From an uncultured archaeon (lineage in GTDB: Archaea > Thermoplasmatota > Poseidoniia > MGIII > CG-Epi1): a stretch of DNA of 39,718 nucleotides. The notes under the pieces were generated by a model. It was not told the origin of the DNA, did no database searches, and saw nothing but the letters and a program-made list of their open reading frames with translations. Made by a program: the position numbers and the translations under genes. Positions 10,219 through 39,628 of the stretch are shown piece after piece (within the stretch, counting starts at the first letter, position 1; every line of letters starts with the position of its first letter). The DNA is taken from NCBI GenBank assembly GCA_964432625.1, contig CAYSOH010000001.1, positions 1-39,718 of the forward strand. The letters are read 5' to 3'.

Positions 10219-10615
10219 ATAGCATATCTCGCAAGGCGAGAATTGCTTTCCTTGCATAAGGTTTCAAACGATCATTGATATGTTCCATTTTAGCCCCTGG
10301 GCCTATGATTCCATAACCAATAGGTTTCATCGAAGCTAATTGAAGGTCTATTATCCCCTTAGTCACTGCATGACCCATTACCAAACCATGATCTGTCTCT
10401 CCTTTCTCAATTATTCCAAGAACAATAGCGCCATCTATAGATTCTCGGAGCAGTAAACGCTTCAGTTGTAAAGGAACCTCCATCGATCCAGGAACCCAAC
10501 AGATTTCCTCTAAAATCATGTCATTCTCTGAGGCCGTAATCTTTGCTTCTTCAACCATCTGTTCAACAAGTTCCTTATGAAAACTACCTGCCACTATTGC
10601 TATTGAATTAGCCAT
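10211..10615 (-). CDS. ribH: 6,7-dimethyl-8-ribityllumazine synthase
   Basis: VPGSMEVPLQLKRLL and GETDHGLVMGHAVTKGIIDL...GIIGPG match the archaeal lumazine synthase pattern. Lies in the rib operon. Confidence 0.85.
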   Translation of the reverse strand: MANSIAIVAGSFHKELVEQMVEEAKITASENDMILEEICWVPGSMEVPLQLKRLLLRESIDGAIVLGIIEKGETDHGLVMGHAVTKGIIDLQLASMKPIGYGIIGPGAKMEHINDRLKPYARKAILALRDMLSS

Positions 10616-11231
10616 TTATCGTCTCCTTTGAAACCACAGATATCGTATCTATCATATTCCTAGTCTGAGTTTCAATCTCTAGATTAATAGAATCTCCAAC
10701 CTCTTTACTTCCTAGATTTGTCAAACGCAAGGTCTCTGGAATCAAATAAACACTAAAACGATTGTCGGAACGGTTGACTTCACCAACCGTCAAACTGACA
10801 CCGTTCAGAGCAATGTATCCTTTAGTAAAGACGTATCGAATTACTTCTGAATTGGTCTGGAAAGTAATGACATGGTTGTTTTCAGGCTTGTCGATTTGGC
10901 AGATTGTAACCACATCAGAGACATGACCTGAAACTAAGTGACCACCAATCTCATCTCCTAGCTTTACCGATCTTTCAACATTCACAATATCATTCTCTTT
11001 TACATTATTCAGAGTAGTTACATCCAATGTCTCCATCATGACATCAAAACCCAAACAGTTAGACTCAATGGATGAAGTTGTTAGGCAGACTCCATCGACG
11101 CACACGCTACCTCCAATCTGCAAACCTGAAGAAAAATCAGGGGATGCCTCAATCTCCACTCTGTAAAGCCCTGTTTCTTTCGTAACACGAGAAACGACAG
11201 CTGTGCCTTCAACTATTCCTGAAAATACCAT
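10608..11231 (-). CDS. ribE: riboflavin synthase, bacterial/eukaryal two-barrel type
   Basis: MVFSGIVEGTA...GGSVCVDGVCLT...METLDVTTL, repeated in the second half as GHVSDV...IALNGVSLTV...PETLRLTNLG. Confidence 0.9.
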   Translation of the reverse strand: MVFSGIVEGTAVVSRVTKETGLYRVEIEASPDFSSGLQIGGSVCVDGVCLTTSSIESNCLGFDVMMETLDVTTLNNVKENDIVNVERSVKLGDEIGGHLVSGHVSDVVTICQIDKPENNHVITFQTNSEVIRYVFTKGYIALNGVSLTVGEVNRSDNRFSVYLIPETLRLTNLGSKEVGDSINLEIETQTRNMIDTISVVSKETING

Positions 11232-11237
11232 GAGACC

Positions 11238-11678
11238 TCATTCTGAACCATATTTCTTTTGATAAATTTTAATTATCTTTGAAATTATCTTTCGTGAACC
11301 TGCCAAATCCTGCTCCATTTCAGGCAAACGAACAACCTTGACTTTCAAACCTCGTTCAAGAAGTCTGGATTCAAGTTCTTCCCTAGTAAACAATCTTTGA
11401 TCATAACCTAAAGCAATAACGTCTGGCTTTATCTCTTCTACAATTATGTCAAGCATATTGCCTGTTCTTCCAATAACTGTCTGATCAACTGGTTTTAGAT
11501 GAGAAACAACCTCAGCTCTCATTTCATCAGACAAAATCGGTTCACCTTTCATTTTTCTTACGGTATCATCGTTAGCTACTATAACCACTAATTCATCCCC
11601 GTGTTCCTTAGCTGCGTTCAAAAAATGTGCATGTCCTGAATGGATTATGTCAAAGACTCCGGTAGCTACTACTTTCAT
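11238..11678 (-). CDS. ribL: FAD synthetase (archaeal RibL, cytidylyltransferase fold)
   Basis: MKVVATGVFDIIHSGHAHFL...ELVVIVANDDTV. I place the start at ATG 11678..11676, which overlaps the ribB TGA (ATGA). The track ORF extends to 11738. Confidence 0.85.
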   Translation of the reverse strand: MKVVATGVFDIIHSGHAHFLNAAKEHGDELVVIVANDDTVRKMKGEPILSDEMRAEVVSHLKPVDQTVIGRTGNMLDIIVEEIKPDVIALGYDQRLFTREELESRLLERGLKVKVVRLPEMEQDLAGSRKIISKIIKIYQKKYGSE

Positions 11679-12367
11679 TGGCACTCCTCCACAATTTGTC
11701 GGCCCTCTAAAAACAAGTGGCCCCTTTCTTCTGCCCATTCACGGGCTTCTTCTGGTGATAAAGCCTTACCATTATCAGATAACATCTCGCAGCCCAATGC
11801 CACTGGGTTGAGGTCAGCATATTTCATAAGTGCAACAATCAACTCTGTGTGCCCTTGCCTTCCCTTTAGAACTTCTTTATCTGCAATACAGACAGGAACA
11901 TGCCCTGGTATTCGAAAGCTGTTCGCCAAGTTCAATCTTGCTACTTCTTCTGGTAAATTTATAGAATCCTCTACAATTTCTGCAAATGATCTAGCTGTAA
12001 GCGACCTGTCATCATCTGTTATGCCTGTAAAAGTGTCCTTATGGTTTATGAACAAAGAGAATGAAGAGCGTGTATCATATGGCAATGAATGACTTAGCAT
12101 AGTATCAACAGAATCAAATCCTTTGGAATCTCTAATCAATGAACTATACATATCCTGTGCAAAGGGTAAGCCCAACTTCTCCGATGCTAGGTAAGATGAT
12201 GCAAGGAATACCATTCCTCCTCCTTCTTTTCTTAGAAACCTAACGTTGTCTGAATTGACTTGTTTGGCTGAAAAGAATATGTCTGTTTCACCCTCTCTAC
12301 TAGAATCATCGAATATCAGAATTGGATCTCCTCTAGTAAGAATTTTTGAAATATCTTCAATTGGCAA
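11675..12367 (-). CDS. ribB: 3,4-dihydroxy-2-butanone 4-phosphate synthase
   Basis: ILIFDDSSREGETDIFF, GGGMVFLA, SSFSLFINHKDTFTGITDDDR, FRIPGHV, GRQGHTEL. Confidence 0.9.
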   Translation of the reverse strand: MPIEDISKILTRGDPILIFDDSSREGETDIFFSAKQVNSDNVRFLRKEGGGMVFLASSYLASEKLGLPFAQDMYSSLIRDSKGFDSVDTMLSHSLPYDTRSSFSLFINHKDTFTGITDDDRSLTARSFAEIVEDSINLPEEVARLNLANSFRIPGHVPVCIADKEVLKGRQGHTELIVALMKYADLNPVALGCEMLSDNGKALSPEEAREWAEERGHLFLEGRQIVEECQ

Positions 12368-12458: not shown

Positions 12459-13013
12459 TTAAGATAAATCGTAGACTGCTCTATCTAATCTAGCTGAAGA
12501 GGTAGCTTTTTGGCTGATATATCTTGTACAAGAAAGATCTCCTGCAACTAATTTAACTATCATCAAAGAACCTGGGTCTCTATTACAAATTAGGGGATCC
12601 TTATCCGGAGAAGTATAAAGATCATATCCTCCCCATTCCTGCTTCCAACCTTCTGTAAAATCATAAGCTACTACTAGTCTTTCAGCTTCTGATTCCTCAG
12701 CATGAAGGAGGGAATAATCACCGGCAGAATATGAAATATGATTTGTCGATCGGAGCTTTGGTTTCAAACCTGTGGAATCTCTAAGAAACTCTATAAATTC
12801 GGAAGAATTCCAAAAACTCTCAAGAATAGCTTTACCTTCATCACGATTATAATATCCTATTTTCTCTTTTCTACTCAATTTTGACTCTTTGGTATCTGAA
12901 AGCGGTTCTAGAAATTTTGACAGGCGGATAAAAGGGATGTCGCCGGAACCAAAGATTCTTTTCAGATTTAGAAGTGTGGGTTTCTCTAGATAATAGAAAT
13001 TCATCTCAGCCAT
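12459..13013 (-). CDS. OGFOD1/Tpa1/Ofd1 C-terminal (non-catalytic DSBH) domain-like protein
   Basis: GDYSLLHAEE, EGWKQEWGGYDLY and SLMIVKL...TRYISQKA resemble the C-terminal domain of OGFOD1 as I recall it. The ATG overlaps the stop of the catalytic-domain ORF by 8 nt. Confidence 0.5.
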   Translation of the reverse strand: MAEMNFYYLEKPTLLNLKRIFGSGDIPFIRLSKFLEPLSDTKESKLSRKEKIGYYNRDEGKAILESFWNSSEFIEFLRDSTGLKPKLRSTNHISYSAGDYSLLHAEESEAERLVVAYDFTEGWKQEWGGYDLYTSPDKDPLICNRDPGSLMIVKLVAGDLSCTRYISQKATSSARLDRAVYDLS

Positions 13014-13581
13014 GGTACCACCCCGTTACTGTCAATCTCTGTATATCCATCAAGATTTCACTAACCTCATGCCAGGAGTGGTCTGAGACTTCAAACATTA
13101 TCAAAGAATTATACTCGGGAATTATACTGTCAACCAATTTGGATTTGCCTTTATCATCAGCTTCAAATACGTTAAGTGCGCCACCCATTTCTTCAGTGAT
13201 TTCTGGAGTAAGGTGTAAACTGTAGGCAATAATGCGCCCTTCTACCTGATCATCGTGTGGAAGAAGAAAATCTCCTAAACCATAAACGTAAGCGGCCATA
13301 TCTATATTTGATAATTCTTTAACATTGAAAGACTTAGAAACTTTTTCACGCCAAGGTTTGTCGCCTAAATCATCACGTAGAATATTGATTGCTGGATGAT
13401 TGATATCTGTCAATTCCACACTTGCCCAGTAGCTAAACAAATCTGACTCCTTGAAATCGTATTCCAATCCTGCTAGAGCATCAATAACCAAGTCTAAGGT
13501 TGGCGCATCAAGAAAGTCTCGGACGACAACGTGTGGAAACGGCTTTGATTTAATTTTTGGAATTTTGTCTGCGTTACGCAT
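13006..13581 (-). CDS. 2-oxoglutarate/Fe(II) oxygenase, OGFOD1/Tpa1-like catalytic domain
   Basis: PFPHVVVRDFL, DLFSYWASVEL, LLPHDDQVEGRIIAYSLHL (HxD), NSLIMFEVSDHSWHEVSEI (distal His), RLTVTGWYHG. Confidence 0.75.
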   Translation of the reverse strand: MRNADKIPKIKSKPFPHVVVRDFLDAPTLDLVIDALAGLEYDFKESDLFSYWASVELTDINHPAINILRDDLGDKPWREKVSKSFNVKELSNIDMAAYVYGLGDFLLPHDDQVEGRIIAYSLHLTPEITEEMGGALNVFEADDKGKSKLVDSIIPEYNSLIMFEVSDHSWHEVSEILMDIQRLTVTGWYHG

Positions 13582-16511: not shown

Positions 16512-16895
16512 TTAGAAAGATACGGTTTGGTCAAGGCGTACGTTCATAGTTCCATCACTGATTTCAATAGTATAGACGAACGTAGTGGTATCACTCGAAG
16601 CTGAAGTTAAATCAAAATAAAGGGAATAACCTTTTGATGCGAAAAGAGACTCGAATGTCTCAGCTGTGGTATCAAAGGAGGTTTCTAAACTTGTACCTGA
16701 TTCTGCATTATCAACTTCATACTCTAGGGCCAATGGAAAATCATCCACTATAGTGCTCAACAGAGGAGTTAGATCGTGCCTCTCTCCCTGGTGAGTAGAG
16801 ATATTCACTGAATGTGTTATTGTACTACTAACTGCAATTATAGTAATTGTCATCAAAAGACCGGAAATCAACAATAATTGTGCGTTATCTTTCAT
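16512..16895 (-). CDS. pilin-like/minor pilus subunit candidate (N-terminal hydrophobic helix)
   Basis: MKDNAQLLLISGLLMTITIIAVSS followed by a Ser/Thr-rich beta-type domain. The ATG shares one nt with the upstream TGA. Last gene of the pilus locus. Confidence 0.45.
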   Translation of the reverse strand: MKDNAQLLLISGLLMTITIIAVSSTITHSVNISTHQGERHDLTPLLSTIVDDFPLALEYEVDNAESGTSLETSFDTTAETFESLFASKGYSLYFDLTSASSDTTTFVYTIEISDGTMNVRLDQTVSF

Positions 16896-17347
16896 CAATC
16901 CTCTCTATACCCATACCATAATTTCAGATTCAAATCCCAAACTTCATCATCTGCCCAAACTATTCTAAAAGCTTGAACAACTGATCCAGACGGGACTTCA
17001 CGATCAACAATAACTTCTGTTTGACCTCCATGTGTTGCTTCTAATCTGTAAGAAACGGATGGTGGTAAGCCTGCATCCAGATACTGTTTGATAGATGCAT
17101 CATCGCCTGTTGCCAGCCACCAAGCTAGAGTTGAACCATCATGTTCTGCCGCCACAGCAGCGTCCGAAGGTTGCCAAGTATCAAGCATTTCAAGAATCTC
17201 AAGACCTGAAAAATAAAGATCGTTTTCCTCAACGTTATTAGCATCACTCGTTGGCAGAATATTTACCGCTACATTGATAGCTGAGGTGAAAAGGGTTGCA
17301 ACCAACAGGACCTCCAGCACATGCATTTGCCCCTTGGTATCATTCAT
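16895..17347 (-). CDS. pilin-like protein with KGQ-type class-III signal candidate
   Basis: MNDTKGQMHVLEVLLVATLFTSAINV resembles the archaeal KGQ...E prepilin N-terminus, with the Glu one position off the usual +5. Confidence 0.5.
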   Translation of the reverse strand: MNDTKGQMHVLEVLLVATLFTSAINVAVNILPTSDANNVEENDLYFSGLEILEMLDTWQPSDAAVAAEHDGSTLAWWLATGDDASIKQYLDAGLPPSVSYRLEATHGGQTEVIVDREVPSGSVVQAFRIVWADDEVWDLNLKLWYGYRED

Positions 17348-17364
17348 ATTAAATTAAACCTCAA

Positions 17365-18627
17365 CTAAATCTGAGGAGTGACCATAGATGTTCCAATTCC
17401 TACCATTTCAAAGACGAACCAGCCAACTAGAAGTAAAGCTGAAGCACGAATAAATGCTGAATATAATCTACCAGATGCCATGAAACCTGCAGCAAGGCCA
17501 TTACCAATTCCTTGTACTATCAGACTGTAAAGAAAAATCGTAGAAATCCATACTTCATTTATCTCTCTAATTGTTAAATTTCCAATTGACATTGAACCTT
17601 GGCCTCCTGTAGCTGCTGATGAATCGACGATAGCTGGAATAAAAGTCGAAGCTAGAACAAGAATAATACCTAGATAAACAAAGAATGAAGCATAAATGAC
17701 GGTTACATAACTTCCTACTTCCTGCCTTCTCTCAGTCTCCAGAGCTTTGATTTCTCTGGCATCATATGACGCAGCCAAAAGAATATCTGAAATACGGCCT
17801 CCTGCACGATTTGCTTCATCAACCATCCTTACTGCTCTGGTAACAATAGGTGAAGTTACACGTTCAGTAAACATCTCTAGAACTTCGCCAAAGGATACTC
17901 CCCAAGAAATTTGTGAAGCCATTTTGTTAACCTCGTCATTTAGATTACCATACTCACCCTTAGCAAGAGTCTGAATAGCGACCGTCATACTTAGACCTCC
18001 TTTCCAATATTCTGCAAGATCTCTCAAGAAGTCTGGGAATTTGTCCTCTACACGTGCCCTAATCTGGTCTCTCCTCCAACCATAAATTCCATAAGGTAGC
18101 ATCAAACTGACCAAACCAAACACAACGTAATCTATCGCAGATATCTCAGGATAGCTTCTGTACCATGTATTGGCCGACATTTCCATCTCTATACCATCAA
18201 CACCTGGGGCACTATCCTTAGATTCATTTGACAAAAACGGCCAATCTTCTTGCTTATCAACAAGGCCAAGACTAGTTATAGCGTCAATTGCACCATTCCC
18301 CTCACTACCTATAGTTTCATCATAAGTAATTCCAAAAGTAAATGAAAAATCACCATCATTCATATGCCAAGGATTGTCAAACTGTTTGTCATAATCTCCA
18401 TCAATTACGAGTGTAGCCTTATCCGTATTGTAATTTACATTAGCAATAAGAAAGAAGAAAATCGCAAAAATAATGGAAAAGAAAACAACAACAACTGGAC
18501 CCCAATCGAAAGTCTTGTCCCTTACGTTTAGCCAGCGAGATACCTTGCTGTATTCCATCCAGCGTCTGTGAACACCGGTACGCTGATCTTGGTAACTCTT
18601 CTTTTGTAAATTACCTTTGATAGTCAT
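17365..18627 (-). CDS. type II secretion system F-domain platform protein (FlaJ/TadC-like, second half) with extracytoplasmic insert
   Basis: FPDFLRDLAEYWKGGLSMTVAIQTLA...VSFGEVLEMF...RAVRMVDEANRAGGRISDIL followed by three TM helices. An insert of about 90 aa lies between TM1 and TM2. Confidence 0.8.
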   Translation of the reverse strand: MTIKGNLQKKSYQDQRTGVHRRWMEYSKVSRWLNVRDKTFDWGPVVVVFFSIIFAIFFFLIANVNYNTDKATLVIDGDYDKQFDNPWHMNDGDFSFTFGITYDETIGSEGNGAIDAITSLGLVDKQEDWPFLSNESKDSAPGVDGIEMEMSANTWYRSYPEISAIDYVVFGLVSLMLPYGIYGWRRDQIRARVEDKFPDFLRDLAEYWKGGLSMTVAIQTLAKGEYGNLNDEVNKMASQISWGVSFGEVLEMFTERVTSPIVTRAVRMVDEANRAGGRISDILLAASYDAREIKALETERRQEVGSYVTVIYASFFVYLGIILVLASTFIPAIVDSSAATGGQGSMSIGNLTIREINEVWISTIFLYSLIVQGIGNGLAAGFMASGRLYSAFIRASALLLVGWFVFEMVGIGTSMVTPQI

Positions 18628-19574
18628 TAATCAGTTGACACCTCCTGACTCAGAGCATAAAATAAACCAGAAAATACAATCTGAATTATTGGAAAACCGC
18701 CAAAAACTAAGAGATACATGTGTTCCCGCTCAAGCTTCATTCCAGAACCTGAAACCCAGAAAGTAATAACTGCTATAATCATCGCAAAAATCGGCAAAGC
18801 GACCGCAACAACAACATAGGCCTCAGAAAAAAGCGCCATCTGCTGTAATACATCCTTGACATGCACGCGGTTTTGCTGTGCATAATATTCTGACCTATTC
18901 AAGAAATATAATTTGAGATTACCTCCTGATGTAACCGTACCTATGATTCCCTGAAGGAATTCAGCAAATCTCTCAGAAGGAGTTCTATCTACTGCTTCTT
19001 TCAAAGTCGTAACCAAATCACGCCCTATGAATTCCATACTATGATATATCCAAGCTGCATCGTTGGAAATTTCACCGTAAATATCTTTGTTTCTAGCAAG
19101 TGACTTGAAAGTCTGAGATGGAGTTGCATTAGCTGCTGCCATAGCTGATACATAACTTGCAGCGAATGGTAATTGTCTGTCCATATTAGTTGCTCGACTT
19201 CCCTCCATAAATGCTGGAGTAAGCCACTGAACAAGACCAACTAGTATAGGTAGAGCCAAAACCAAGACGGCTCCAACAATTATTTCTACGGTTTGAGAAA
19301 TTTCAAAATTCTCACCTGTGTTTGGGTCTTCCATTCCTCTTAATTCAGGAAAAAGAAATCCCACAAGAAATAGAGTGAAAACCAAACCACCTAGAAATGT
19401 CATTATGACTTGCATGATAGAAGTGGAAACGTAATCCTCTGCAAGAAGGGGGATTCTGGCTTTGACAAGTTGATTTCTAAGTTGTAGAGAATCTTTGGTC
19501 AGCATACGGCCTAACCAACCTAGTAAAACTCTACTAAATGTCTCAAAACCGGTCAGAGCCATTTGTGCCACCAA
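18627..19574 (-). CDS. type II secretion system F-domain platform protein (FlaJ/TadC-like, first half)
   Basis: LPFAASYVSAMAAANATPSQTFKSLA...LKEAVDRTPSERFAEFLQGIIGTVTSGGNLKLYF plus TM helices. Its TAA overlaps the next ATG (TAATG). The start may instead be ATG 19562. Confidence 0.8.
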   Translation of the reverse strand: MVAQMALTGFETFSRVLLGWLGRMLTKDSLQLRNQLVKARIPLLAEDYVSTSIMQVIMTFLGGLVFTLFLVGFLFPELRGMEDPNTGENFEISQTVEIIVGAVLVLALPILVGLVQWLTPAFMEGSRATNMDRQLPFAASYVSAMAAANATPSQTFKSLARNKDIYGEISNDAAWIYHSMEFIGRDLVTTLKEAVDRTPSERFAEFLQGIIGTVTSGGNLKLYFLNRSEYYAQQNRVHVKDVLQQMALFSEAYVVVAVALPIFAMIIAVITFWVSGSGMKLEREHMYLLVFGGFPIIQIVFSGLFYALSQEVSTD

Positions 19575-21808
19575 CGTGGATTAGCGGAACGTTGAACTCT
19601 ATTGGCCAAAGCTGTCTTCAAACTAACAAGTGCTTTAGCTGCACGGCCCTCTTCAGAAGATACTGCTGCTGCTTTCTTATCATCACTTAATTTTGCCATT
19701 CTAGCTTCAGCTTTAGCCCTCTTATTGAGTTCCCCACGAACTGCTTTCAACATGCGACGGCCCTCGACCTCATTAAGTGATGATACATCACCTAAGTCTA
19801 TTTGTTTGGCCAATGGAGTAAGTTGCTTGAGTGGGACGTAGTAAGCTTGATCCTTCAATAAATCTGCTTGAAGTCTAGCTTCTATCTTATCTCTTCGTTT
19901 TTCCTCGTTAGAAATAAGCTTAGATCTCTTGGTTGGATCATCAGTTTGTGATATCTTAGCATCACTCTTTGACCTAGCTGCCTGCTCTTTGGCCTCACGC
20001 TTCTGGTATTTCTGCCTGACCTTTGGTGGGAAATCAGAGACATCGACCTCATCATCTTCAGAACCAGACAAGTCCATATCACGTTCTTCGACTTTCCGGC
20101 GACGTTTCTTACCTCCTACCTGCATATCAGCATAGACTTGGCGCATGACGTCTTCTGGGTGTACATAGTACTCCGCAACGACCCTAGCAAAATCTTTGTA
20201 ATCACGAATTGCTTTCTTCAGACACCATTCAATCACCAGTTGGCGTCTCTTCATCTCATCCATAATCTCGACTCGGTTGAGATTAGCTTTCATCATTATC
20301 TTCTCAAGGATGTATGATTTACCTGTGAAAACATATTCATCAGTCGTATTATCCCATCTGAATGCCTCATTAGTAAGCAGTTCATGGGAATGAGGATCAA
20401 TGCCTATAATCTCAACAATGTTCTTGTTTCTTCGAACACGTTTACCACCAACACGAGTCTGAATTTGGATTGAAATACCGTCCAATGCAGGAATTAAAAC
20501 TCTTGGAATCTCAATTGGTTTGTTTTCTAGACGGTGAACTAAACTCTGAATAGAATCTGCGTGGAAGGTCGAATAAGTTGTGTGTCCCGTAGCCATAGCT
20601 TGGAACAGAACATAAGCTTCAGCACCACGAATTTCTCCCACAATAATGTATTCTGGACGTTCTCTCAAAGCTGCTCGTAGAAGGTCGTACATGTCAACCT
20701 CTCCTGGAGCCTTCTGACCAGTTCCTCCAGCTTCACCTCCAAAACCTTGTCTTGTACAGCCTGGAATCCAGTTAGGATGCGGTAAATTCAACTCTCTTGT
20801 CTCTTCAATACTGACAATCTTATGCTGCCATGGAAGGAAAAGAGAACAAGCATTCAAAGACGTAGTCTTACCTGAAGCCGTTCCACCTACAAACAGCATT
20901 GACATCCCGTATTGCATTGCCATCCAGAAGAAAGCAATCTGCATAGATGAGAAAGTCTTGAATTCCAATAAGTCTACAGGAGTAAAAGGTTCATCCCTGA
21001 AACGCCGTATCGTAAACGTAGAACCCTTAGTCGAAACTTCTCTACCAAGAGTCATAACAATACGGGAACCGTCCATCAGTGTTGCGTCCAATAGTGGTTC
21101 TGCAATCGAAATATGTTTACCACAACGCTGGGCCATACGGATTATGTACTGTTCAAGTTCAAGTTCATCCTCCCACATAACATTGGTTCTCAAAGATTCG
21201 AACCTTCGATGATAAACAAAAACCTCAACATTAGGGCCATCACATGAAACATCCTCAATATTTGGATCACGCATCATAGTATCGACCCGACCATAACCAA
21301 TCATATCTCTCTCAATGAAATAGTGGATTTTTTCTCTGTTGCTTTTTCTAGACTTCAAACGATAACTGTTCAATATATCATCAACAGCCTGTTTCAAGAA
21401 ATCCTCTTGAGACTCATCCATAGTTTCGCGATCAATATTAAGTGCACGCTGAAGAACCTCTTTAATCGTATTAAGATCATCCATTTCCTGTTTACTTGCC
21501 TTCGGTTCCACTACGTAGTAAAACCTTGAATAATCTCTCTTATCGAAAAGAACTCGAACATAGGAAAATGGAGGGCGAACGGGGTAGGTATCAAGTTCTT
21601 CAAAATCTTCTCCAATCTCGATATCATCCATAACGAGATCATGAATAACACCTTCTTTCTCTGCCGCTCGACGCTTACGCTCCAATGCTTTTCGCTGCTT
21701 TTTGAGCTTGCGACGCTCTAACCAGGAAAGTTTTGATTCATCGATGGGTTCTTCCTCTTGTCCAAGCAATCCCGAATCGGCATCTAGTGTCCCTTTCGCT
21801 GCGCTCAT
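19553..21808 (-). CDS. FlaI/ArlI/PilB-family type IV filament assembly ATPase with long charged C-terminal extension
   Basis: YPVRPPFSYVRV..FYYVVEP N-domain, Walker A GGTASGKTT, Walker B/Asp box PEYIIVGEIRGAEA, His box ATGHTTYSTFHA. Residues ~563-751 are a K/R/E-rich tail. Confidence 0.9.
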   Translation of the reverse strand: MSAAKGTLDADSGLLGQEEEPIDESKLSWLERRKLKKQRKALERKRRAAEKEGVIHDLVMDDIEIGEDFEELDTYPVRPPFSYVRVLFDKRDYSRFYYVVEPKASKQEMDDLNTIKEVLQRALNIDRETMDESQEDFLKQAVDDILNSYRLKSRKSNREKIHYFIERDMIGYGRVDTMMRDPNIEDVSCDGPNVEVFVYHRRFESLRTNVMWEDELELEQYIIRMAQRCGKHISIAEPLLDATLMDGSRIVMTLGREVSTKGSTFTIRRFRDEPFTPVDLLEFKTFSSMQIAFFWMAMQYGMSMLFVGGTASGKTTSLNACSLFLPWQHKIVSIEETRELNLPHPNWIPGCTRQGFGGEAGGTGQKAPGEVDMYDLLRAALRERPEYIIVGEIRGAEAYVLFQAMATGHTTYSTFHADSIQSLVHRLENKPIEIPRVLIPALDGISIQIQTRVGGKRVRRNKNIVEIIGIDPHSHELLTNEAFRWDNTTDEYVFTGKSYILEKIMMKANLNRVEIMDEMKRRQLVIEWCLKKAIRDYKDFARVVAEYYVHPEDVMRQVYADMQVGGKKRRRKVEERDMDLSGSEDDEVDVSDFPPKVRQKYQKREAKEQAARSKSDAKISQTDDPTKRSKLISNEEKRRDKIEARLQADLLKDQAYYVPLKQLTPLAKQIDLGDVSSLNEVEGRRMLKAVRGELNKRAKAEARMAKLSDDKKAAAVSSEEGRAAKALVSLKTALANRVQRSANPRWWHKWL

Positions 21809-21809
21809 T

Positions 21810-22322
21810 TTAGTTCCCTGCCGCCAATGTGACGACCTTCAAGTCGACATCATAATATATGACTATATAAGAAGTCGTCGACCTTATAGGAAGACCACTT
21901 TTGGTCACTATTTCTGTCGCTGGATAAAGTGGAAAGTTAACCTCAAATGAACCTCCTCTCGGTTGATAAGTAATAACTTTTAAGCCGTCTTCAGTCCCAT
22001 TAACTTTGTACAATATATCATGATAATTACTAGAATCAGGCCCCCATGCCATAGTAACAACTGGTGAGGCTGTTGGATGTTCACGGATAGTGTTCAGCAG
22101 ATCTTCTATAGCTAACTGAAAATACAATGCTACTTGCTCGGCTTCTTCCTGTACCGTGTTCGATACATTTCCACTTATCATAGTGCTAGATGTAAGCATC
22201 ATTGATGAAAGCACTAAAACTGAAATTAATGCTGTATAAACATAGCCAATTAGCTGCGAAGCAGCAGAATCATCGTAGGCCAAATTCAACATTGATTGTC
22301 CTCTCGAGTACTCTGAAATCAA
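21810..22322 (-). CDS. pilin-like accessory protein (N-terminal hydrophobic helix)
   Basis: AASQLIGYVYTALISVLVLSSMML helix followed by a globular domain. It ends 1 nt before the ATPase ATG. The start is uncertain: 22322 or ATG 22292. Confidence 0.45.
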   Translation of the reverse strand: MISEYSRGQSMLNLAYDDSAASQLIGYVYTALISVLVLSSMMLTSSTMISGNVSNTVQEEAEQVALYFQLAIEDLLNTIREHPTASPVVTMAWGPDSSNYHDILYKVNGTEDGLKVITYQPRGGSFEVNFPLYPATEIVTKSGLPIRSTTSYIVIYYDVDLKVVTLAAGN

Positions 22323-23346
22323 AGGCTGTATCCTGAGAATAGATTATGTCTTCCTCAAAACCCATGTTCGCTGCAGTGGTTGAATCATTTTGATTGAAAT
22401 CAAATTGTCTTGCGCTGAAGTCCCAATAATTCAAATAATAAACTCTTAGAGCTGAGACTCCATCACCTGCAAAAGCCATTCTAAGTGAATAAACGCTAAA
22501 TGAATTATCTGTTCCACCCTGATTTCGGGCCTGGAAATTGTAATTTCCAGCTTGTACTGCTTTTGAGCCTGAGGGTGCGGTATAATTTGTTTGATAAACT
22601 GTTAAGGAGCCATAAGACGAGGAACTGCCTGTATGTCTTATCAAAGGATTAGAAGTTGTAAAGAACTCTTTCGAACCAGGTTCCTTAGAGACCATTGCTC
22701 CATTGAACATTCTCATCTTATATACTCCCGAAACTGAAGAATAACTATATGATAGAGAATCTACGCCATAAATTAGGAAACCACCAATCACTGTTGAATT
22801 TTCAGTACTGGTGAATGTTGCTTTAGTTCCATGAACCAGAGGTGGAAAACCAGAAACCAATAAGTCAGAAGTGCCTGTCCAACTTGGTTCATCTGGAACT
22901 CCGTCTCCGTCATTATCTGGATAGGTGAGTGTAACTCTATACTCACTTACAACTTCATTATTGTCTTTCATAGCAAAGGATTCAGAGCCTGTTTTAACAC
23001 CCACAATCTCTGGATCAAACCATGACACAGTAGTATAGTAATATCTTATTTCATCAAGTTTGGTCCAATCTTCTCTAAGAGCAAGTGTGCCTGCGCTCAA
23101 AGAAACCGTTGATGTGCGAGAAGAACCTTCTCCTTGAAGCAGGACATGATCAAGATCTGCATCGAAATTTAGAAGATTATTTTGTGAGGATGTATATATT
23201 GCATAGGCTTCGCTTTCCTGTATCTGTGGTATTCCCCATGCTAACATAGTACCTGTGATTGTAACCATTATACCTAGAATGAGAACAGTACCTATGATGG
23301 GACTTACACCCTCTTCTGATTCACGGAAAGAAAGCTGACGCTGCAC
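22270..23346 (-). CDS. archaeal type IV pilin-family protein (large, Ser/Thr-rich)
   Basis: GTG start. MQRQLSFRESEEGVSPIIGTVLILGIMVTITGTMLAWG is the archaeal Pilin_N (DUF1628-type) class-III signal plus hydrophobic helix. Contains several N-x-S/T sequons. Confidence 0.7.
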   Translation of the reverse strand: MQRQLSFRESEEGVSPIIGTVLILGIMVTITGTMLAWGIPQIQESEAYAIYTSSQNNLLNFDADLDHVLLQGEGSSRTSTVSLSAGTLALREDWTKLDEIRYYYTTVSWFDPEIVGVKTGSESFAMKDNNEVVSEYRVTLTYPDNDGDGVPDEPSWTGTSDLLVSGFPPLVHGTKATFTSTENSTVIGGFLIYGVDSLSYSYSSVSGVYKMRMFNGAMVSKEPGSKEFFTTSNPLIRHTGSSSSYGSLTVYQTNYTAPSGSKAVQAGNYNFQARNQGGTDNSFSVYSLRMAFAGDGVSALRVYYLNYWDFSARQFDFNQNDSTTAANMGFEEDIIYSQDTAFDFRVLERTINVEFGLR

Positions 23347-34533: not shown

Positions 34534-34595
34534 AGATGGGAGACAAAGCTCCCATTTACCTGGTGAACGGGGCTTTGCAGCCCCGCTCTATTTTC
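34534..34595. terminator. pair of GC-rich hairpins flanked by T/A tracts between convergent genes (bidirectional terminator candidate)
   Basis: Hairpin 1 is atgggag-acaaag-ctcccat (34536-34555). Hairpin 2 is cggggct-ttgc-agccccg (34568-34585), followed by ctctatttt. On the minus strand, hairpin 1 is followed by caatttttattttt. Confidence 0.45.
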
Positions 34596-34606: not shown

Positions 34607-35110
34607 CTACGATTGTAGTGCTATATCGTAACCGATTACGTCACCGGTTGGCTCGAACTTCATACGGAACGAGTAGTCAGATACATCTGAGACACTCTCT
34701 AAATCCGAGTCAGCTTCACCTGGGTGAACTTCAAACTTGTCACCTGGGCTCAACTTACCATTGAAGTCGTTGTCAATGAAGACTACAGCTTTACCCTGGC
34801 CAGAGTAATAACCGTATACATCAGAGACTAAGCCATCAGTCTTAGTGTTTCCCTGTACATCCAGTAGATACCAGTGTACCGAGTTTACGGAAACTTGTGG
34901 GTTAATTTTGACGATCTGAACCGTCCATACACCACTTCCGTCTTCGCTTGCTATCATACTGCCAGTTGGTGCATTCTTGGTTGTACCACCAAGGAAACTG
35001 CTAGCCCAAACATACAGTACTGCAGCCAGAACAACCGTAATTGCAACCATCAAAATGACAGCAATTACAGGCGAAACTGCCTGCTCATCGTTTACTATTC
35101 TGCGCTTCAT
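34607..35110 (-). CDS. archaeal type IV pilin (Pilin_N/DUF1628-type)
   Basis: MKRRIVNDEQAVSPVIAVILMVAITVVLAAVLYVWASSF is a canonical class-III signal plus helix. The globular domain carries the GKLSPGDKFEV motif typical of this family. Confidence 0.7.
   Translation of the reverse strand: MKRRIVNDEQAVSPVIAVILMVAITVVLAAVLYVWASSFLGGTTKNAPTGSMIASEDGSGVWTVQIVKINPQVSVNSVHWYLLDVQGNTKTDGLVSDVYGYYSGQGKAVVFIDNDFNGKLSPGDKFEVHPGEADSDLESVSDVSDYSFRMKFEPTGDVIGYDIALQS
34623..34664. repeat. 42-nt perfect repeat, copy A (3' end of pilin gene)
   Basis: atatcgtaaccgattacgtcaccggttggctcgaacttcata is identical to 35198..35239, at the same 575-nt offset as the larger block. Confidence 0.9.
34827..34987. repeat. 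161-nt near-perfect repeat, copy A (147 nt perfect, 1 mismatch at 34974)
   Basis: Compared base by base with 35402..35562. Bases 34827-34973 are identical, 34974 differs (t vs c), and 13 further bases are identical. Confidence 0.9.
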
Positions 35111-35120
35111 AGTTGTGTCC

Positions 35121-35136
35121 TCTGACCGAAGTCAGA
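35121..35136 (-). other. short hairpin with UUCG tetraloop in the pilin 5' region
   Basis: The minus strand reads TCTGAC-TTCG-GTCAGA and ends 11 nt upstream of ATG 35110. It abuts GAGGA, a Shine-Dalgarno-like sequence. Confidence 0.35.
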
Positions 35137-35184
35137 ATTTGGCTACAACTATCTGAGCATATATACCTTACGTTAAAACAATCT

Positions 35185-35727
35185 TCATTCAAATACAATA
35201 TCGTAACCGATTACGTCACCGGTTGGCTCGAACTTCATAAGGAATGAAAAACCAGACAAATCATCAATATCTTCTAAATCTGAATTAGCCTCAGACGGAA
35301 GGAATTCAAATTTGTCACCGGGGCTCAATTTACCATTGAAATCTACATCAGTAAATATTACTCCATGGCCATGACCTTGTTTAGTACCATAGATATCGGA
35401 AACTAAGCCATCAGTCTTAGTGTTTCCCTGTACATCCAGTAGATACCAGTGTACCGAGTTTACGGAAACTTGTGGGTTAATTTTGACGATCTGAACCGTC
35501 CATACACCACTTCCGTCTTCGCTTGCTATCATACTGCCAGTTGGTGCACTCTTGGTTGTACCCTGAGGGTACCATCCATACGTTATGGAATAATAAAATA
35601 CTAATAGAATTATGAGGATAGCCAGAAGGCCTACTGCAATTCCTGTAACTTTTAAAATTTCTGTAATCTTGGAAAGCCCGACAACACTCTTAACTGAATC
35701 TAAGTCTTTCTCATCACTATCAGTCAT
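35185..35727 (-). CDS. membrane-anchored paralogue of the 34607..35110 pilin head domain (no class-III signal)
   Basis: The N-terminus MTDSDEKDLDS...GIAVGLLAILIILLVFYY lacks the VSPVIG motif. Its head domain shares a 51-aa block (APTGSMIASEDGSG...TDGLVSD) that is 100 percent identical to the pilin. ATGA overlap with the upstream gene. Confidence 0.65.
   Translation of the reverse strand: MTDSDEKDLDSVKSVVGLSKITEILKVTGIAVGLLAILIILLVFYYSITYGWYPQGTTKSAPTGSMIASEDGSGVWTVQIVKINPQVSVNSVHWYLLDVQGNTKTDGLVSDIYGTKQGHGHGVIFTDVDFNGKLSPGDKFEFLPSEANSDLEDIDDLSGFSFLMKFEPTGDVIGYDIVFE
35198..35239. repeat. 42-nt perfect repeat, copy B
   Basis: Identical to 34623..34664. Confidence 0.9.
35402..35562. repeat. 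161-nt near-perfect repeat, copy B
   Basis: Identical to 34827..34987 except for 35549. Confidence 0.9.
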
Positions 35728-36251
35728 TTCAAACGATCTCTACGTAAAACAAGAGACCCCAGTATAGCCAAGAGAACAGTTATGCTAGCTCCAATCCATG
35801 CTATAGATGATGCCCAATCAGGTACATTAGTCTCTGAATGTGCCTCTATCTCTGGTGGCCTTATGACTGAACTATAGGAAGACCAAGTACCTCCATCCTG
35901 ATCAAAAAAGATTATTGACAATTCGGCCTCACCCTCTCCTAATTCAAATGATTCTACCGGAGCTTGCCAATGAAAAGTCCAACCCTCAGTACTATCTGAA
36001 AAACTTAAGTGATGAACATCTGACTCAAATTCGGCCGTCTCACTCAAAGTCCCATTGGTTACTGTAATATTTACGGATGAAATCGCAGAATAATTACTAG
36101 CTGTCAAAACTATCTCATACGATGATCCTGTAGCATAGTGTAAATCATCAGGTAAACCATCGACTCTGTAAACCGGATCATCGGCCTGTGAAAAGGGAAT
36201 AAACAGACAAATTGTCAGCATTACAAGCAGACTCTTTCTAACAGTATACAT
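35724..36251 (-). CDS. secreted Reeler-like domain protein with C-terminal TM anchor (paralogue of 27377..28048, lacks the CxCH head)
   Basis: Signal peptide MYTVRKSLLVMLTICLFIPFSQA. YRVDGLPDDLHYATGSSYEIVLTAS, HHLSFS and WTFHWQAPVESFELGEGEAEL parallel the other Reeler-like ORF. C-terminal helix AWIGASITVLLAILGSLVL. Confidence 0.55.
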   Translation of the reverse strand: MYTVRKSLLVMLTICLFIPFSQADDPVYRVDGLPDDLHYATGSSYEIVLTASNYSAISSVNITVTNGTLSETAEFESDVHHLSFSDSTEGWTFHWQAPVESFELGEGEAELSIIFFDQDGGTWSSYSSVIRPPEIEAHSETNVPDWASSIAWIGASITVLLAILGSLVLRRDRLK

Positions 36252-36299: not shown

Positions 36300-36959
36300 T
36301 CATCTTGTTAGACCACGTTGCTGTAAACTTTCAAGTATCAAACGTACTTCAGCTTCTCGAAGACCAAGAGATGCTGCTGCACCCTCTATAGTGTAATCTT
36401 TGTTGTGCAATATATGATGCAAAAGCCTGCGTTCTTCGTATGTGCATTCAGCACTTTGGGCAGCAGATGTTATTTCTCGATTTAGTTCTCCAACAAGTGC
36501 CATCAAACTACGTCTTTCATCCTCAACTTCCACGATTGAATTTCTCAAATCTTCAGAAACTCGAGAGAGGAGATCCATCCGTGCTTTGGAATTCATATTG
36601 CGAGATTCTGAAACTGCATCCAAAACTCTTCTATGTTGCTCGGAAAGATTTGAAATATCGAAATCGGTTTCAGCTTTTTGCTTGTAAGTCGAAGGGCCAA
36701 TATCTATGTGGAGGGAGACCTCTCTTGATGCCTTGTAAACACGGCGATTAGGTCCTCGAGTACTTGGTTCATCGCGTGACTTTACCAAACCGTGCTGTTC
36801 CAGTATCCTAAGATGCTTGACAACTGCCTGTTGTGTTACGTCTATTTCACGGGATAATTGCAACGGATAAAGACGTTCTACTGACAATAACTGGAGGATA
36901 CGGCGTCGTGTAGGATTCTCCAACAAATAGAACAGTTCGTCTACTTCATCAATTGACAT
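36300..36959 (-). CDS. ArsR-type winged-helix transcription regulator with coiled-coil and second C-terminal HTH-like segment
   Basis: LLENPTRRRILQLLSVERLYPLQLSREIDVTQQAVVKHLRILEQHGLV, a heptad-like middle region, then C-terminal YTIEGAAASLGLREAEVRLILESLQQRGL. Confidence 0.8.
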   Translation of the reverse strand: MSIDEVDELFYLLENPTRRRILQLLSVERLYPLQLSREIDVTQQAVVKHLRILEQHGLVKSRDEPSTRGPNRRVYKASREVSLHIDIGPSTYKQKAETDFDISNLSEQHRRVLDAVSESRNMNSKARMDLLSRVSEDLRNSIVEVEDERRSLMALVGELNREITSAAQSAECTYEERRLLHHILHNKDYTIEGAAASLGLREAEVRLILESLQQRGLTR

Positions 36960-39552: not shown

Positions 39553-39628
39553 AGCCCCGTAGTGTAGCGGTCCATCATTCAGGCCTTTGGAGCCTGAGAC
39601 CTCGGTTCGAATCCGAGCGGGGCTACCA
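39553..39628 (+). tRNA. tRNA-Gln (anticodon UUG) with genomically encoded CCA
   Basis: Folded by hand. Acceptor stem AGCCCCG/CGGGGCT (A1-U72), anticodon stem CAGGC/GCCTG, loop CTTTGGA (TTG at 39587-39589), T arm CTCGG-TTCGAAT-CCGAG, discriminator A, then CCA. Confidence 0.9.

What the first reader, a model, noticed from the sequence alone, without database searches (positions are those of the whole stretch)
34607..35727. Tandem paralogues sharing an identical head-domain block: one a true pilin, one a plain membrane anchor
Seen directly: the two genes are collinear at a 575-nt offset. They share a 147-nt perfect block (161 nt with one mismatch, 34827-34987 vs 35402-35562) and a 42-nt perfect block (34623-34664 vs 35198-35239). 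The roughly 160 nt between the blocks and the 5' ends are clearly diverged, with about two thirds amino-acid identity by eye between the blocks and unrelated N-termini. The identical block encodes APTGSMIASEDGSGVWTVQIVKINPQVSVNSVHWYLLDVQGNTKTDGLVSD in both.
The downstream copy has a textbook class-III pilin signal (DEQAVSPVIAVILMVAITVVLAA). The upstream copy has a longer acidic N-terminus and an ordinary TM helix with no cleavage motif.
The patchwork of perfect and diverged segments suggests ongoing gene conversion, or nucleotide-level constraint on part of the head domain. Biologically, the same domain would be displayed both on a filament and directly on the membrane.
Basis: seen in the sequence. 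Interest (0 to 1): 0.65.

Follow-up and report, generated by a model that had tools for sequence, protein, structure and literature searches.

The report
Gene conversion between archaeal pilin paralogues
Two neighbouring genes of an uncultured marine archaeon (Marine Group III), a pilus subunit and a pilin-derived membrane-tethered copy, keep half of their outer domain identical by repeatedly copying DNA from one to the other; this is a clear natural example of a known process, not a new kind of system.

Summary
Gene A (34607-35110, minus strand) and gene B (35185-35727, minus strand) are collinear at a 575-nt offset. They share a perfect 147-nt tract and a perfect 42-nt tract, separated by 162 nt at 64% identity. 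A run that long is far beyond chance.

A is a true archaeal type IV pilin. It matches Pilin_N and TIGR02537, and its model's best structural match is the Cuniculiplasma CdiPB pilus subunit. A PilB/PilC operon lies 13 kb away.

B matches no pilin profile, but it is not an unrelated anchor. It has the same long-helix-plus-head build, and its helix looks like a decayed pilin helix.

Related Marine Group III loci carry the same B-A pair. In the first half of the head domain, A and B of one genome are closer at synonymous sites than either is to its orthologue. In the second half the reverse holds. Tract ends differ between 99%-identical strains. This is domain-limited gene conversion, mostly A to B.

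Crossover products and B-less strains also exist. The window's own B allele was found in no other assembly, so a local assembly error is unlikely but not excluded. Overall this is a new variant of a known kind, of moderate interest.

The parts
34607..35110 (-). Gene A: archaeal type IV pilin, 167 aa. Class III signal with hydrophobic helix, then an Ig-like beta-sandwich head. Probably the major pilin.
   Evidence: Pfam Pilin_N at 6e-10 and TIGR02537 at 5e-13. AF2 model pLDDT 82.8, helix 14-39 plus 7 strands. Foldseek top hit 8rey_A, the Cuniculiplasma pilus, at E 1e-6. PDB sequence hits to Natrinema PilA2 and other pilins.
35185..35727 (-). Gene B: pilin-derived paralogue, 180 aa. Acidic N-terminus, a long helix containing a TM segment (about residues 27-50), no recognisable class III motif, and the same head domain.
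   Evidence: No Pfam or NCBIfam hit. AF2 helix 13-50 plus the same sandwich, pLDDT 79. hhalign against pilin N-termini gives probability 92.9%. B-type orthologues at 55-62% identity occur in conserved synteny. Purifying selection versus L013 B in the mid part (pN 0.16, pS 0.52).
34827..34973 (-). A copy of the 147-nt perfect tract, the likely donor. Encodes beta-strands 1-4 of the head.
35402..35548 (-). B copy of the 147-nt perfect tract, the likely recipient. It carries A-type bases at the 13-14 positions where the B alleles of L008 and L006 differ from A.
34623..34664 (-). A copy of the 42-nt perfect tract (MKFEPTGDVIGYDI).
   Evidence: Identical in all B-A pairs of the window's clade, but diverged between A and B in L012, L013 and L017 (pS 0.39-0.56).
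35198..35239 (-). B copy of the 42-nt perfect tract.
34665..34826 (-). Old, unconverted half of the head in A. The B counterpart is 35240-35401.
   Evidence: 64% nt identity. pS between A and B is 0.74-0.92 in every lineage. Quartet sites favour orthology by 17-21 to 1-3.
35111..35184 (-). B-A spacer carrying A's own conserved promoter-like TATA (35158-35167), a 5'-UTR hairpin TCTGAC-TTCG-GTCAGA (35121-35136) and a GAGGAC ribosome-binding site (35117-35122).
   Evidence: Sequence read directly. The spacer is conserved upstream of A in B-less strains and in the CG-Epi1 and LRMED MAGs. Promoter function is inferred.
35178..35728 (-). The B cassette, a presence/absence polymorphism. It is exactly missing from contigs 99% identical to the window and is flanked by CGTTTGA and TGTTTTA.
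35724..36251 (-). 175-aa secreted protein with a C-terminal TM anchor. Its stop overlaps B's start (ATGA), so B is probably co-transcribed with it. It always lies next to the pilin locus.
36300..36959 (-). ArsR/HTH_20 family regulator, conserved at the head of the locus.
16512..23346 (-). Type IV pilus assembly operon: PilB3-like ATPase (19553-21808), split PilC platform (17365-18627 and 18627-19574), and DUF7289/DUF7288 and other minor-pilin-like genes.

Best explanation
The window comes from a Marine Group III (Poseidoniia) archaeon. Its locus reads ArsR regulator, 175-aa surface protein, B, A.

A is the filament-forming type IV pilin. It has its own conserved promoter-like element and is presumably assembled by the PilB/PilC machinery 13 kb away.

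B is an old paralogue of a pilin. Its signal and helix region has decayed into a longer, charge-interrupted helix without a recognisable prepilin-peptidase site. It most likely stays in the membrane and shows the same head domain at the cell surface.

The two genes diverged long ago; synonymous sites in the second half of the head are near saturation. The first half of the head (strands 1-4), and in this clade a short 3' tail, are repeatedly overwritten by non-reciprocal homologous recombination between the copies 575 nt apart. In the window's clade, A looks like the usual donor and B the recipient.

In the window's strain the latest tract is 147 nt and has erased every B-specific difference. 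Sister strains carry shorter or different tracts.

The same shared tract also supports reciprocal crossovers. These delete or swap N-termini, giving a B N-terminus on an A head and the reverse. B as a whole is dispensable and absent from many strains.

Shown: the identity pattern, its significance, the pilin identity of A, the concerted-evolution signal, and the strain polymorphism.

Inferred: the A-to-B direction, B's membrane retention, A's promoter, and the reason conversion stops half-way. The proposed reason is selection keeping the two distal halves different while the proximal half tolerates or benefits from identity.
For: Taxon and synteny:
- 41 loci in GTDB genomes are named Marine Group III, Poseidoniia or CG-Epi1.
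- The order HTH, 175 aa, B, A, with a convergent CCA-adding enzyme gene, is conserved in L012, L013 and L017.

A is a pilin.

Concerted evolution, within-genome A versus B:
- Block: pS is 0.06 in the window, 0.11-0.19 in sister strains, 0.24 in L012, and 0.35-0.38 in L013 and L017.
- Block, orthologues between lineages: pS 0.35-0.54.
- Mid part, A versus B: pS 0.74-0.92, against 0.41-0.68 for orthologues between lineages.

Quartet-informative sites, concerted versus orthology pattern:
- Block: 8:0, 14:1, 11:1, 11:2.
- Mid part: 1:17, 3:20, 3:21.

Tract polymorphism among strains 94-99% identical in the flanks:
- The longest identical runs are 147 nt in the window, 73 in L008, 30 in the block of L006, and 46 in L019.
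- L010 has a different mosaic.
- An A/G polymorphism in the block is shared by A and B copies.

Direction:
- A's block carries no amino-acid change within the clade.
- B alleles range from diverged (LRDEQGYHKSDGLISD) to fully A-like.
- Window B versus L008 B in the block gives pN 0.088 and pS 0.074.

Crossover products:
- L060 and L061 come from two samples and two assemblers and are identical to each other.
- Their single gene equals L012 B for nt 1-331 and L012 A from nt 276 to the end. The switch lies inside the 56-nt identical tract.
- L005 and L062 carry the reciprocal type.

B as a cassette.

B is functional:
- The ORF is intact at 172-182 aa in all lineages.
- pN/pS is about 0.3 in the mid part.
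Against: - The exact window B protein is not on record.
- Neither a 191-nt nor an 81-nt junction-spanning string of the window's B occurs in the JGI metagenome contigs. The most complete tract therefore rests on one assembly.
- All B-A loci come from short-read metagenome assemblies. The long-read MAGs (LRMED, L037, L049, L052) and the single-cell genomes carry other arrangements, so no long read spans a B-A pair.
- A's apparent invariance in L001-L010 is by construction, because those contigs were retrieved by exact A sequence.
- B's lack of cleavage is argued from profiles and motifs only.
- In L060 and L061 a B-type N-terminus sits on the only head gene of the locus. This hints that at least the K-G-bearing B-type N-terminus may still work as a pilin signal.
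- hhalign on hydrophobic helices can be inflated by composition.
Confidence: 0.8

Rival explanations
1. Assembly artefact. The window's B block was created when a short-read assembler stepped from B onto A and back in a mixed-strain sample. The recombinant haplotypes in other contigs would be similar graph-path errors.
For: - The window's B allele is unique.
- The source populations clearly mix B-plus and B-less strains.
- Identical tracts of 56-147 nt are the kind of repeat at which de Bruijn graphs tangle.
- The recombinant types [B-N/A-C] and [A-N/B-C] are valid walks through a mixed graph.
Against: - A double switch would be needed. The return from A to B would fall between two adjacent differences (alignment positions 171 and 173), with no shared k-mer relative to L008-type B.
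- That same 3' junction occurs independently in L019, L010, L005 and the P0001 cluster of 33 sequences.
- The window's B has the codon AGT where A has AAT and other B alleles have GGT. It is therefore not a splice of any observed pair.
- L060 and L061 agree base for base across two samples and two assemblers, although their shared tract (56 nt) is shorter than MEGAHIT's final k of 127.
- The cross-lineage signal rests on scattered substitutions in pairs whose identical runs are at most 26 nt, which path switching cannot produce.
Confidence: 0.1
2. There is no conversion. The block is identical because of very strong purifying selection on the protein, or on the nucleotide sequence itself through an embedded RNA or regulatory element.
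For: - The block is the best-conserved part of the protein family. Near-invariant residues include W62, K68, P71, S77 and W80 to L82.
- Even distant pairs are more alike there than in the mid part.
Against: - Synonymous sites are free to change. Orthologous blocks differ at pS 0.35-0.54.
- In L013 and L017, A and B differ at pS 0.35-0.38 within the block.
- 53 consecutive third codon positions are identical in the window, against a permutation maximum of 37.
- Quartet sites group the copies by genome, not by gene.
- Rfam finds nothing in the region.
Confidence: 0.03
3. B is a working minor pilin or pilus-base subunit, cleaved or not, that co-assembles with A. The converted half is the subunit-subunit interface, and selection for compatibility with A retains conversions there.
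For: - B has pilin-like architecture.
- Its helix is homologous to the pilin helix.
- A K-G motif is conserved in deeper B types.
- The sole-copy recombinant with a B-type N-terminus occurs in L060 and L061.
- Adjacent major and minor pilin pairs are known: AapA/AapB and CdiPA/CdiPB (PMC12448462).
- The converted part is the helix-proximal strands 1-4.
Against: - The window-type B lacks the K-G motif and has K, E and K inside the would-be mature N-terminus.
- B matches neither Pilin_N nor TIGR02537.
- B is absent from many otherwise near-identical strains and from long-read MAGs.
- The machinery operon already encodes four minor-pilin-like proteins.
Confidence: 0.25

Closest known systems
Archaeal type IV adhesion pilins of the Pilin_N/DUF1628 type (Haloferax PilA1-6, Natrinema PilA2 8gi2, Cuniculiplasma CdiPB 8rey)
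   Same: - A has the same N-terminal profile, the same helix-plus-beta-sandwich build, and a pilin gene remote from the PilB/PilC operon.
- The platform protein is split as in the CdiP system.
- Several paralogous pilins share identical segments, as with the Haloferax PilA H-domains (own knowledge, Esquivel et al. 2013, cited in PMC5069720).
   Different: - Here the identical segment is in the head, not the hydrophobic helix.
- One paralogue has lost the recognisable signal.
- The head domain is a narrow family, with 63 representatives among 1.84 billion proteins.
Major/minor pilin gene pairs AapB/AapA (Sulfolobus) and CdiPB/CdiPA (Cuniculiplasma)
   Same: Two adjacent pilin-like genes. One is highly expressed and forms the filament. 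The other has an unclear, possibly base-associated role (PMC12448462).
   Different: Those minor pilins keep a class III signal and are not reported to share converted tracts with the major pilin. B is optional at the strain level.
Neisseria pilE/pilS antigenic variation by gene conversion
   Same: Non-reciprocal transfer of short tracts between pilin-gene copies, producing mosaic alleles in a population.
   Different: - The direction appears reversed: the expressed pilin A is the donor and stays constant.
- B is a complete, translationally coupled ORF, not a silent partial cassette.
- There is no G4 motif anywhere in the window.
- The effect is homogenisation, not diversification.
ArlF/ArlG (FlaF/FlaG), membrane-anchored archaellin-like proteins of the archaellum
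   Same: A filament-subunit-like beta-sandwich held on an uncleaved N-terminal membrane helix. This is a precedent for a subunit-derived protein that stays at the cell surface (own knowledge; mentioned in PMC12448462).
   Different: No sequence match. B is not in a machinery operon and is dispensable. A stator role is pure analogy.
Concerted evolution of tandem or duplicated bacterial genes (for example tufA/tufB)
   Same: Paralogues within a genome are more alike than orthologues, because of recurrent RecA-type conversion.
   Different: Here conversion covers only half a domain and has a sharp 3' limit kept across strains. It coexists with crossovers that swap the N-terminal targeting modules.

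Membership tests
Archaeal type IV pilin (Pilin_N / class III signal): gene A | N-terminal class III signal plus a conserved hydrophobic helix matching the family profiles | tested here: met
   Pilin_N at 6.4e-10 (40 bits, cut-off 25). TIGR02537 at 5.4e-13 (48 bits, cut-off 20).
Archaeal type IV pilin (Pilin_N / class III signal): gene A | Long N-terminal alpha-helix followed by a beta-rich globular head resembling solved pilus subunits | tested here: met
   AF2 pLDDT 82.8. Foldseek 8rey_A at E 1.1e-6, and 8fk7 also listed. hmmsearch hits 8gi2, 9myg and 8fj5.
Archaeal type IV pilin (Pilin_N / class III signal): gene A | A PilB-type ATPase and PilC-type platform in the genome | tested here: met
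   T2SSE/PilB3 protein of 751 aa and two T2SSF proteins at 17365-21808.
Archaeal type IV pilin (Pilin_N / class III signal): gene A | Cleavage by a prepilin peptidase and polymerisation into a filament | not testable with these tools
   No peptidase gene was identified among the window ORFs scanned. This needs biochemistry or cryo-EM.
Archaeal type IV pilin (Pilin_N / class III signal): gene B | Match to the Pilin_N or TIGR02537 profile | tested here: not met
   No family at E <= 0.1 in Pfam or NCBIfam.
Archaeal type IV pilin (Pilin_N / class III signal): gene B | Charged residue then G/A at -2/-1, followed directly by an uninterrupted hydrophobic stretch | tested here: not met
   Read by eye. 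The window's B has ...KSVVG/LSKITEILKVTG/IAVG..., with no K/R at -2 and with K, E and K after the first G. Deeper B orthologues have K-G-S/L-G-x-L-K-I-I, a partial match. No dedicated predictor was run.
Archaeal type IV pilin (Pilin_N / class III signal): gene B | Helix-plus-head architecture and descent from a pilin | tested here: met
   AF2 helix 13-50 plus the same sandwich. Head 80% identical to A. hhalign of N-termini gives probability 92.9% over 21 columns. L031 B-like helix motif.
Gene conversion / concerted evolution between paralogues | Within the tract, paralogues in one genome are closer at synonymous sites than orthologues between genomes; outside it, the reverse holds | tested here: met
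   pS values. Quartet sites: block 8:0 to 14:1, mid part 1:17 to 3:21.
Gene conversion / concerted evolution between paralogues | An identical run longer than expected from the pair's divergence (GENECONV-type test) | tested here: met
   0 of 200,000 permutations reach 147 (maximum 70). The third-position run is 53 against a maximum of 37.
Gene conversion / concerted evolution between paralogues | Tract ends polymorphic among closely related strains | tested here: met
   Window, L019, L008, L006, L010 and L005 alleles.
Gene conversion / concerted evolution between paralogues | The pattern is present in the physical DNA molecule (not an assembly chimera) | tested here: inconclusive
   The window allele is not found elsewhere. 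The junction logic and independent assemblies argue for reality. No long read spans a B-A pair.
Neisseria-type pilin antigenic variation | Silent, promoterless partial cassettes donate to one expressed pilin gene, and a G4 element lies nearby | tested here: not met
   B is a full ORF coupled to the upstream gene. A is the constant copy. No G4 motif in the window.

The most novel reading that the evidence does not exclude
The head domain would be a lineage-specific adhesion module that Marine Group III cells present in switchable formats: on a pilus, on an uncleaved membrane helix, on a lipid anchor, or on giant surface proteins.

The converted tract would serve as a built-in recombination site. 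Through it, natural populations would exchange the targeting N-terminus (filament or membrane) on a given head by unequal crossover. Biased conversion from the pilin would keep the membrane-bound copy's proximal face identical, so that it can dock to or seed the filament.
Probability: 0.15. Interest if true: 0.6.

Novelty: new variant of a known kind. Interest (0 to 1): 0.4.

Why it matters
Marine Group III archaea are uncultured, and their surface biology is known only from sequence. This locus shows three things.

- They carry a CdiP/PilA-like adhesion pilus whose subunit gene sits in a strain-variable cassette region.
- A pilin can give rise to a conserved paralogue that has lost its recognisable prepilin signal.
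- Homologous recombination between copies 575 nt apart actively shapes half a domain in wild populations. It produces conversion tracts, N-terminus swaps and gene loss.

The locus is a clean natural case for studying tract length and the selective limits of gene conversion in archaea. It is also a practical warning that this region will be mis-assembled or mis-binned in short-read data. It does not reveal a new class of system.

Tried and rejected
- Exact look-up of the window's B protein: not on record.
- Two exact-string scans of the JGI metagenome contigs, 191 nt and 81 nt across the tract junctions: no match. Independent confirmation of this allele failed.
- Long-read check: the LRMED long-read MAGs and the single-cell genomes carry A alone, pilin'+A, pilin''+A or three paralogues, never the window-type B-A pair.
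- Pilin'+A and pilin''+A pairs show no long identical runs (at most 29 nt). Conversion was detected only in the B-A clades.
- Rfam scan of the whole window: only a tRNA.
- G-quadruplex search for a Neisseria-like mechanism: none.
- Literature searches for gene conversion in archaeal pilins or archaellins and for Marine Group III pili found nothing specific.
- The sigma-70 promoter scanner was not used, because it does not apply to archaea. A's promoter is inferred from a conserved TATA-like element.
- A silent donor cassette role for B was rejected. B is an intact ORF under purifying selection, and it looks like the recipient rather than the donor.
- No dedicated class III signal predictor (FlaFind) was available, so motif checks were done by eye.
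Full report
**1. What is in the sequence**

Both genes lie on the minus strand. A is 34607-35110 (167 aa). B is 35185-35727 (180 aa) and lies upstream of A in the direction of transcription.

At a 575-nt offset the copies are collinear from 34612 to 34987:
- 34827-34973 is identical to 35402-35548, 147/147.
- Extending to 34987 gives 160/161.
- 34623-34664 is identical to 35198-35239, 42/42.
- The 162 nt between the tracts are 64% identical (31/52 residues, 60%).
- The 5' coding parts are 31% identical, which is no nucleotide similarity.

With 67 differences in 378 aligned nt, none of 200,000 permutations gave an identical run longer than 70. For third codon positions alone the observed run is 53 and the permutation maximum 37.

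**2. What the two proteins are**

A matches Pfam Pilin_N (6e-10) and TIGR02537, the archaellin/type IV pilin N-terminal domain (5e-13).

An AlphaFold2 model of A (pLDDT 82.8) has a helix at residues 14-39 followed by a seven-strand sandwich. Its best PDB neighbour is the Cuniculiplasma divulgatum pilus subunit CdiPB (8rey_A, E 1e-6). A Pyrobaculum pilin is also listed. A family profile hits Natrinema PilA2 and two other solved archaeal pilins.

A type IV pilus operon lies 13 kb away in the window. It contains:
- a PilB3-like ATPase of 751 aa;
- a PilC platform split into two genes, as in the Cuniculiplasma CdiP system (PMC12448462);
- four small proteins with class-III-like N-termini, two of them DUF7289 and DUF7288.

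A is therefore a true pilin and probably the major one. It has its own TATA-like element, a 5'-UTR hairpin and a ribosome-binding site. These are conserved even in distant Marine Group III MAGs. Promoter function is inferred.

B matches no family. Its model (pLDDT 79) has a 38-residue helix at 13-50 and the same sandwich as A.

B-type proteins 55-62% identical to the window's B are common in marine metagenomes. They keep a conserved N-terminal motif, roughly ADKALDSxxKGSGxLKIIxIL.

Several results link the B N-terminus to a pilin helix:
- A profile of B-type N-termini aligns to the second half of the pilin helix and its LYxW motif (hhalign probability 92.9% over 21 columns).
- In the single-cell genome AG-343-J07, the B-like gene reads ...IVMAAILYSWVGW next to a pilin reading ...VVMAAVLYAWVSGW.

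B is thus a pilin derivative whose signal region has decayed, not an unrelated anchor. The window-type B has lost even the K-G and carries K, E and K in the would-be mature N-terminus. Retention in the membrane is therefore the more likely fate, but this is an inference.

B is a working gene. Its ORF is intact at 172-182 aa in all lineages, and pN/pS against distant orthologues is about 0.3 in the mid part. Its start overlaps the stop of the upstream 175-aa surface-protein gene (ATGA), so it probably belongs to that transcript.

**3. Where it comes from**

A scan of one genome per species found 41 loci, nearly all named Marine Group III, Poseidoniia or CG-Epi1.

The order ArsR regulator, 175-aa gene, [B], A, with a convergent CCA-adding enzyme gene, is conserved.

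The content of the variable slot differs:
- B+A;
- A alone, including the long-read MAG LRMED-008 and CG-Epi1;
- a second true pilin plus A;
- three paralogues in one single-cell genome.

**4. Gene conversion**

In the block (APTGS...LVSD), synonymous divergence between A and B of the same genome is:
- 0.06 in the window;
- 0.11-0.19 in sister strains;
- 0.24 in L012;
- 0.35-0.38 in L013 and L017.

Orthologues between these lineages differ at 0.35-0.54 in the block. In the mid part, A and B differ at 0.74-0.92 everywhere, and orthologues between lineages at 0.41-0.68.

Quartet-informative sites were counted as 'A and B of one genome agree against the other genome' versus 'A agrees with A and B with B':
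- Block: 8:0, 14:1, 11:1, 11:2.
- Mid part: 1:17, 3:20, 3:21.

The first half of the head therefore evolves in concert within genomes. The second half has been separate since before these lineages split.

Nucleotide-level constraint is excluded, because synonymous sites in the block change freely between lineages. Rfam finds nothing there.

Within the window's own species the tracts are polymorphic:
- L008 and L006 are 94-99% identical to the window in the flanks. Their B differs from A at 13-14 positions inside the '147-nt block', including a cluster encoding LRDEQGYHKSDGLISD.
- L019 has the 5' markers but not the 3' cluster.
- L010 has another mosaic.
- The window's B has lost all of these differences.
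- All alleles share the same 3' limit, the GTC/GTT codon of LVSD.
- An A/G polymorphism inside the block is shared by A and B copies.

A's block shows no amino-acid change within this clade, while B ranges from diverged to A-like. A is therefore the usual donor. One caveat applies: L001-L010 were retrieved by exact A protein, so A's constancy among them is by construction. The GTDB loci give the unbiased view.

Where B has not been recently converted, it carries more non-synonymous than synonymous change relative to the converted allele (pN 0.088, pS 0.074). This suggests weaker constraint on B's block, which conversion then resets.

The 42-nt tail tract is identical in every pair of the clade but diverged in L012, L013 and L017. 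This fits an older tract that became fixed in the clade.

**5. Crossovers and gene loss**

- Contigs 99% identical to the window (L002, L004, L007) lack exactly 35178-35728, the B cassette. It is flanked by CGTTTGA and TGTTTTA.
- L060 and L061 come from two samples and two assemblers and are identical to each other. They carry a single gene that equals L012's B for nt 1-331 and L012's A from nt 276 to the end. The switch lies inside the 56-nt tract those genes share. This is the deletion product of an unequal crossover.
- L005 and L062 carry the opposite combination, an A N-terminus on a B distal half.
- Database proteins show all four N-terminus/head combinations.

**6. Is it an assembly artefact?**

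The window's exact B is not on record, and two junction-spanning strings are absent from the JGI contigs. No long-read or single-cell assembly contains a window-type B-A pair. I therefore cannot prove the 147-nt tract in the molecule.

Several points argue against a chimera:
- Two switches would be needed.
- The switch back to B would fall between adjacent differences relative to L008-type B.
- That junction is present in several independent assemblies.
- The window's AGT codon is intermediate between A's AAT and other B alleles' GGT.

The cross-lineage signal rests on scattered substitutions in pairs with identical runs of at most 26 nt, which path switching cannot create. I put the artefact reading of the window's tract at about 10%. 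The general conclusion does not depend on it.

**7. How it probably works**

RecA/RadA-type recombination between copies 575 nt apart repeatedly copies A's sequence into B across strands 1-4 of the head. The tract stops at the start of the old diverged half. The cause could be too little homology to extend the heteroduplex, or selection removing conversions that erase the functional difference between the distal halves (acidic loops PGEADSDLESVSDVSDYS versus PSEANSDLEDIDDLSGFS).

The main functional rival is that B co-assembles with A as a minor or basal subunit, and that identity of the helix-proximal half is selected for packing. The architecture and the L060/L061 recombinant hint at this. 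The decayed motif and B's dispensability argue against it.

**8. Comparison with known systems and novelty**

A is an ordinary member of the archaeal Pilin_N pilins, and the machinery resembles CdiP and PilB3C3. Conversion between pilin copies is classic in Neisseria, but the features defining that system are not met here: there are no silent cassettes, no G4 motif, and the expressed pilin is the constant copy.

What is new:
- A conserved signal-degenerate pilin paralogue in Marine Group III.
- Conversion limited to half a domain, with population-level tract polymorphism.
- Reuse of a narrow head-domain family, with 63 representatives in 1.84 billion proteins. It occurs on pilins, on membrane helices, behind a lipoprotein signal and in giant surface proteins of 830-2208 aa.

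I rate it a new variant of a known kind, with interest 0.4.

Noticed in passing
window 16512-23346 (-): Complete type IV pilus assembly operon: DUF7289 pilin-like protein (358 aa), a 170-aa protein, a PilB3-like ATPase (751 aa), PilC split into two T2SSF genes (315 and 420 aa), DUF7288 (150 aa) and a 128-aa protein. All four small proteins have class-III-like N-termini. The split platform mirrors the Cuniculiplasma CdiP machinery.
   Followed up: partly
L054 919-6777, L055 10-6636, L056 76-2568; proteins P0048, P0082, P0087: The pilin head domain is embedded near the C-terminus of giant surface proteins (1952, 2208 and 830 aa, with PKD domains and C-terminal TM anchors). It also sits behind a lipoprotein signal in P0048. 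The L055 copy is 86% nt identical to pilin A of the same MAG, so it is a fairly recent capture.
   Followed up: partly
window 35178-35728; L002, L004, L007: Gene B is a clean presence/absence cassette among 99%-identical strains, flanked by the near-repeat CGTTTGA / TGTTTTA. Without it, the last residue and the stop codon of the 175-aa gene change (K-TGA to T-TAA).
   Followed up: yes
L060 1273-1809 and L061 1795-2331: In two independent samples and assemblers the locus holds a single hybrid gene: a B-type N-terminus plus block, then an A-type distal half. The crossover lies inside a 56-nt identical tract. No canonical pilin is left at the locus in these contigs.
   Followed up: yes
L031 730-2341 (single-cell genome AG-343-J07): Three tandem paralogues: pilin', a B-like gene and A. 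The B-like head is 75% identical to the neighbouring pilin' but only 57% to A. B-type genes seem to resemble whichever pilin lies beside them.
   Followed up: partly
window 35111-35184 (-): Conserved TATA-like element (35158-35167), 5'-UTR hairpin TCTGAC-TTCG-GTCAGA (35121-35136) and GAGGAC site upstream of pilin A. They are retained in B-less strains and in distant Marine Group III MAGs.
   Followed up: partly
window 34569-34584: GC-rich hairpin GGGGC-TTTGCA-GCCCC between the convergent CCA-adding enzyme gene and pilin A, with T/A runs on both sides. It is a likely bidirectional terminator.
   Followed up: no
L008 1595-2137, L006 1762-2304: These B alleles carry a dense cluster of amino-acid changes in the block (LLDVQGNTKTDGLVSD to LRDEQGYHKSDGLISD). 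Relative to the converted window allele there are 10.5 non-synonymous and 2.5 synonymous differences. The origin is unknown: drift, diversifying selection or a third donor.
   Followed up: no
window 35724-36251 (-): A 175-aa protein with a signal peptide, a weak Ig-like match (Big_7, choice-of-anchor V) and a C-terminal TM with a basic tail. It is always adjacent to the pilin locus in Marine Group III. Its function is unknown.
   Followed up: no
window 10211-12367 (-), 12459-13581 (-), 39553-39625 (+): A riboflavin biosynthesis cluster (lumazine synthase, riboflavin synthase, FAD synthetase-like protein, DHBP synthase), two adjacent 2OG-Fe(II) oxygenase genes, and a tRNA gene at the window's end.
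   Followed up: no
P0048 (NCBI, labelled Dehalococcoidia bacterium); L056 (labelled Acidiferrobacteraceae): Proteins or contigs carrying this archaeal head domain are filed under bacterial MAGs. This is probably mis-binning of Marine Group III contigs.
   Followed up: no
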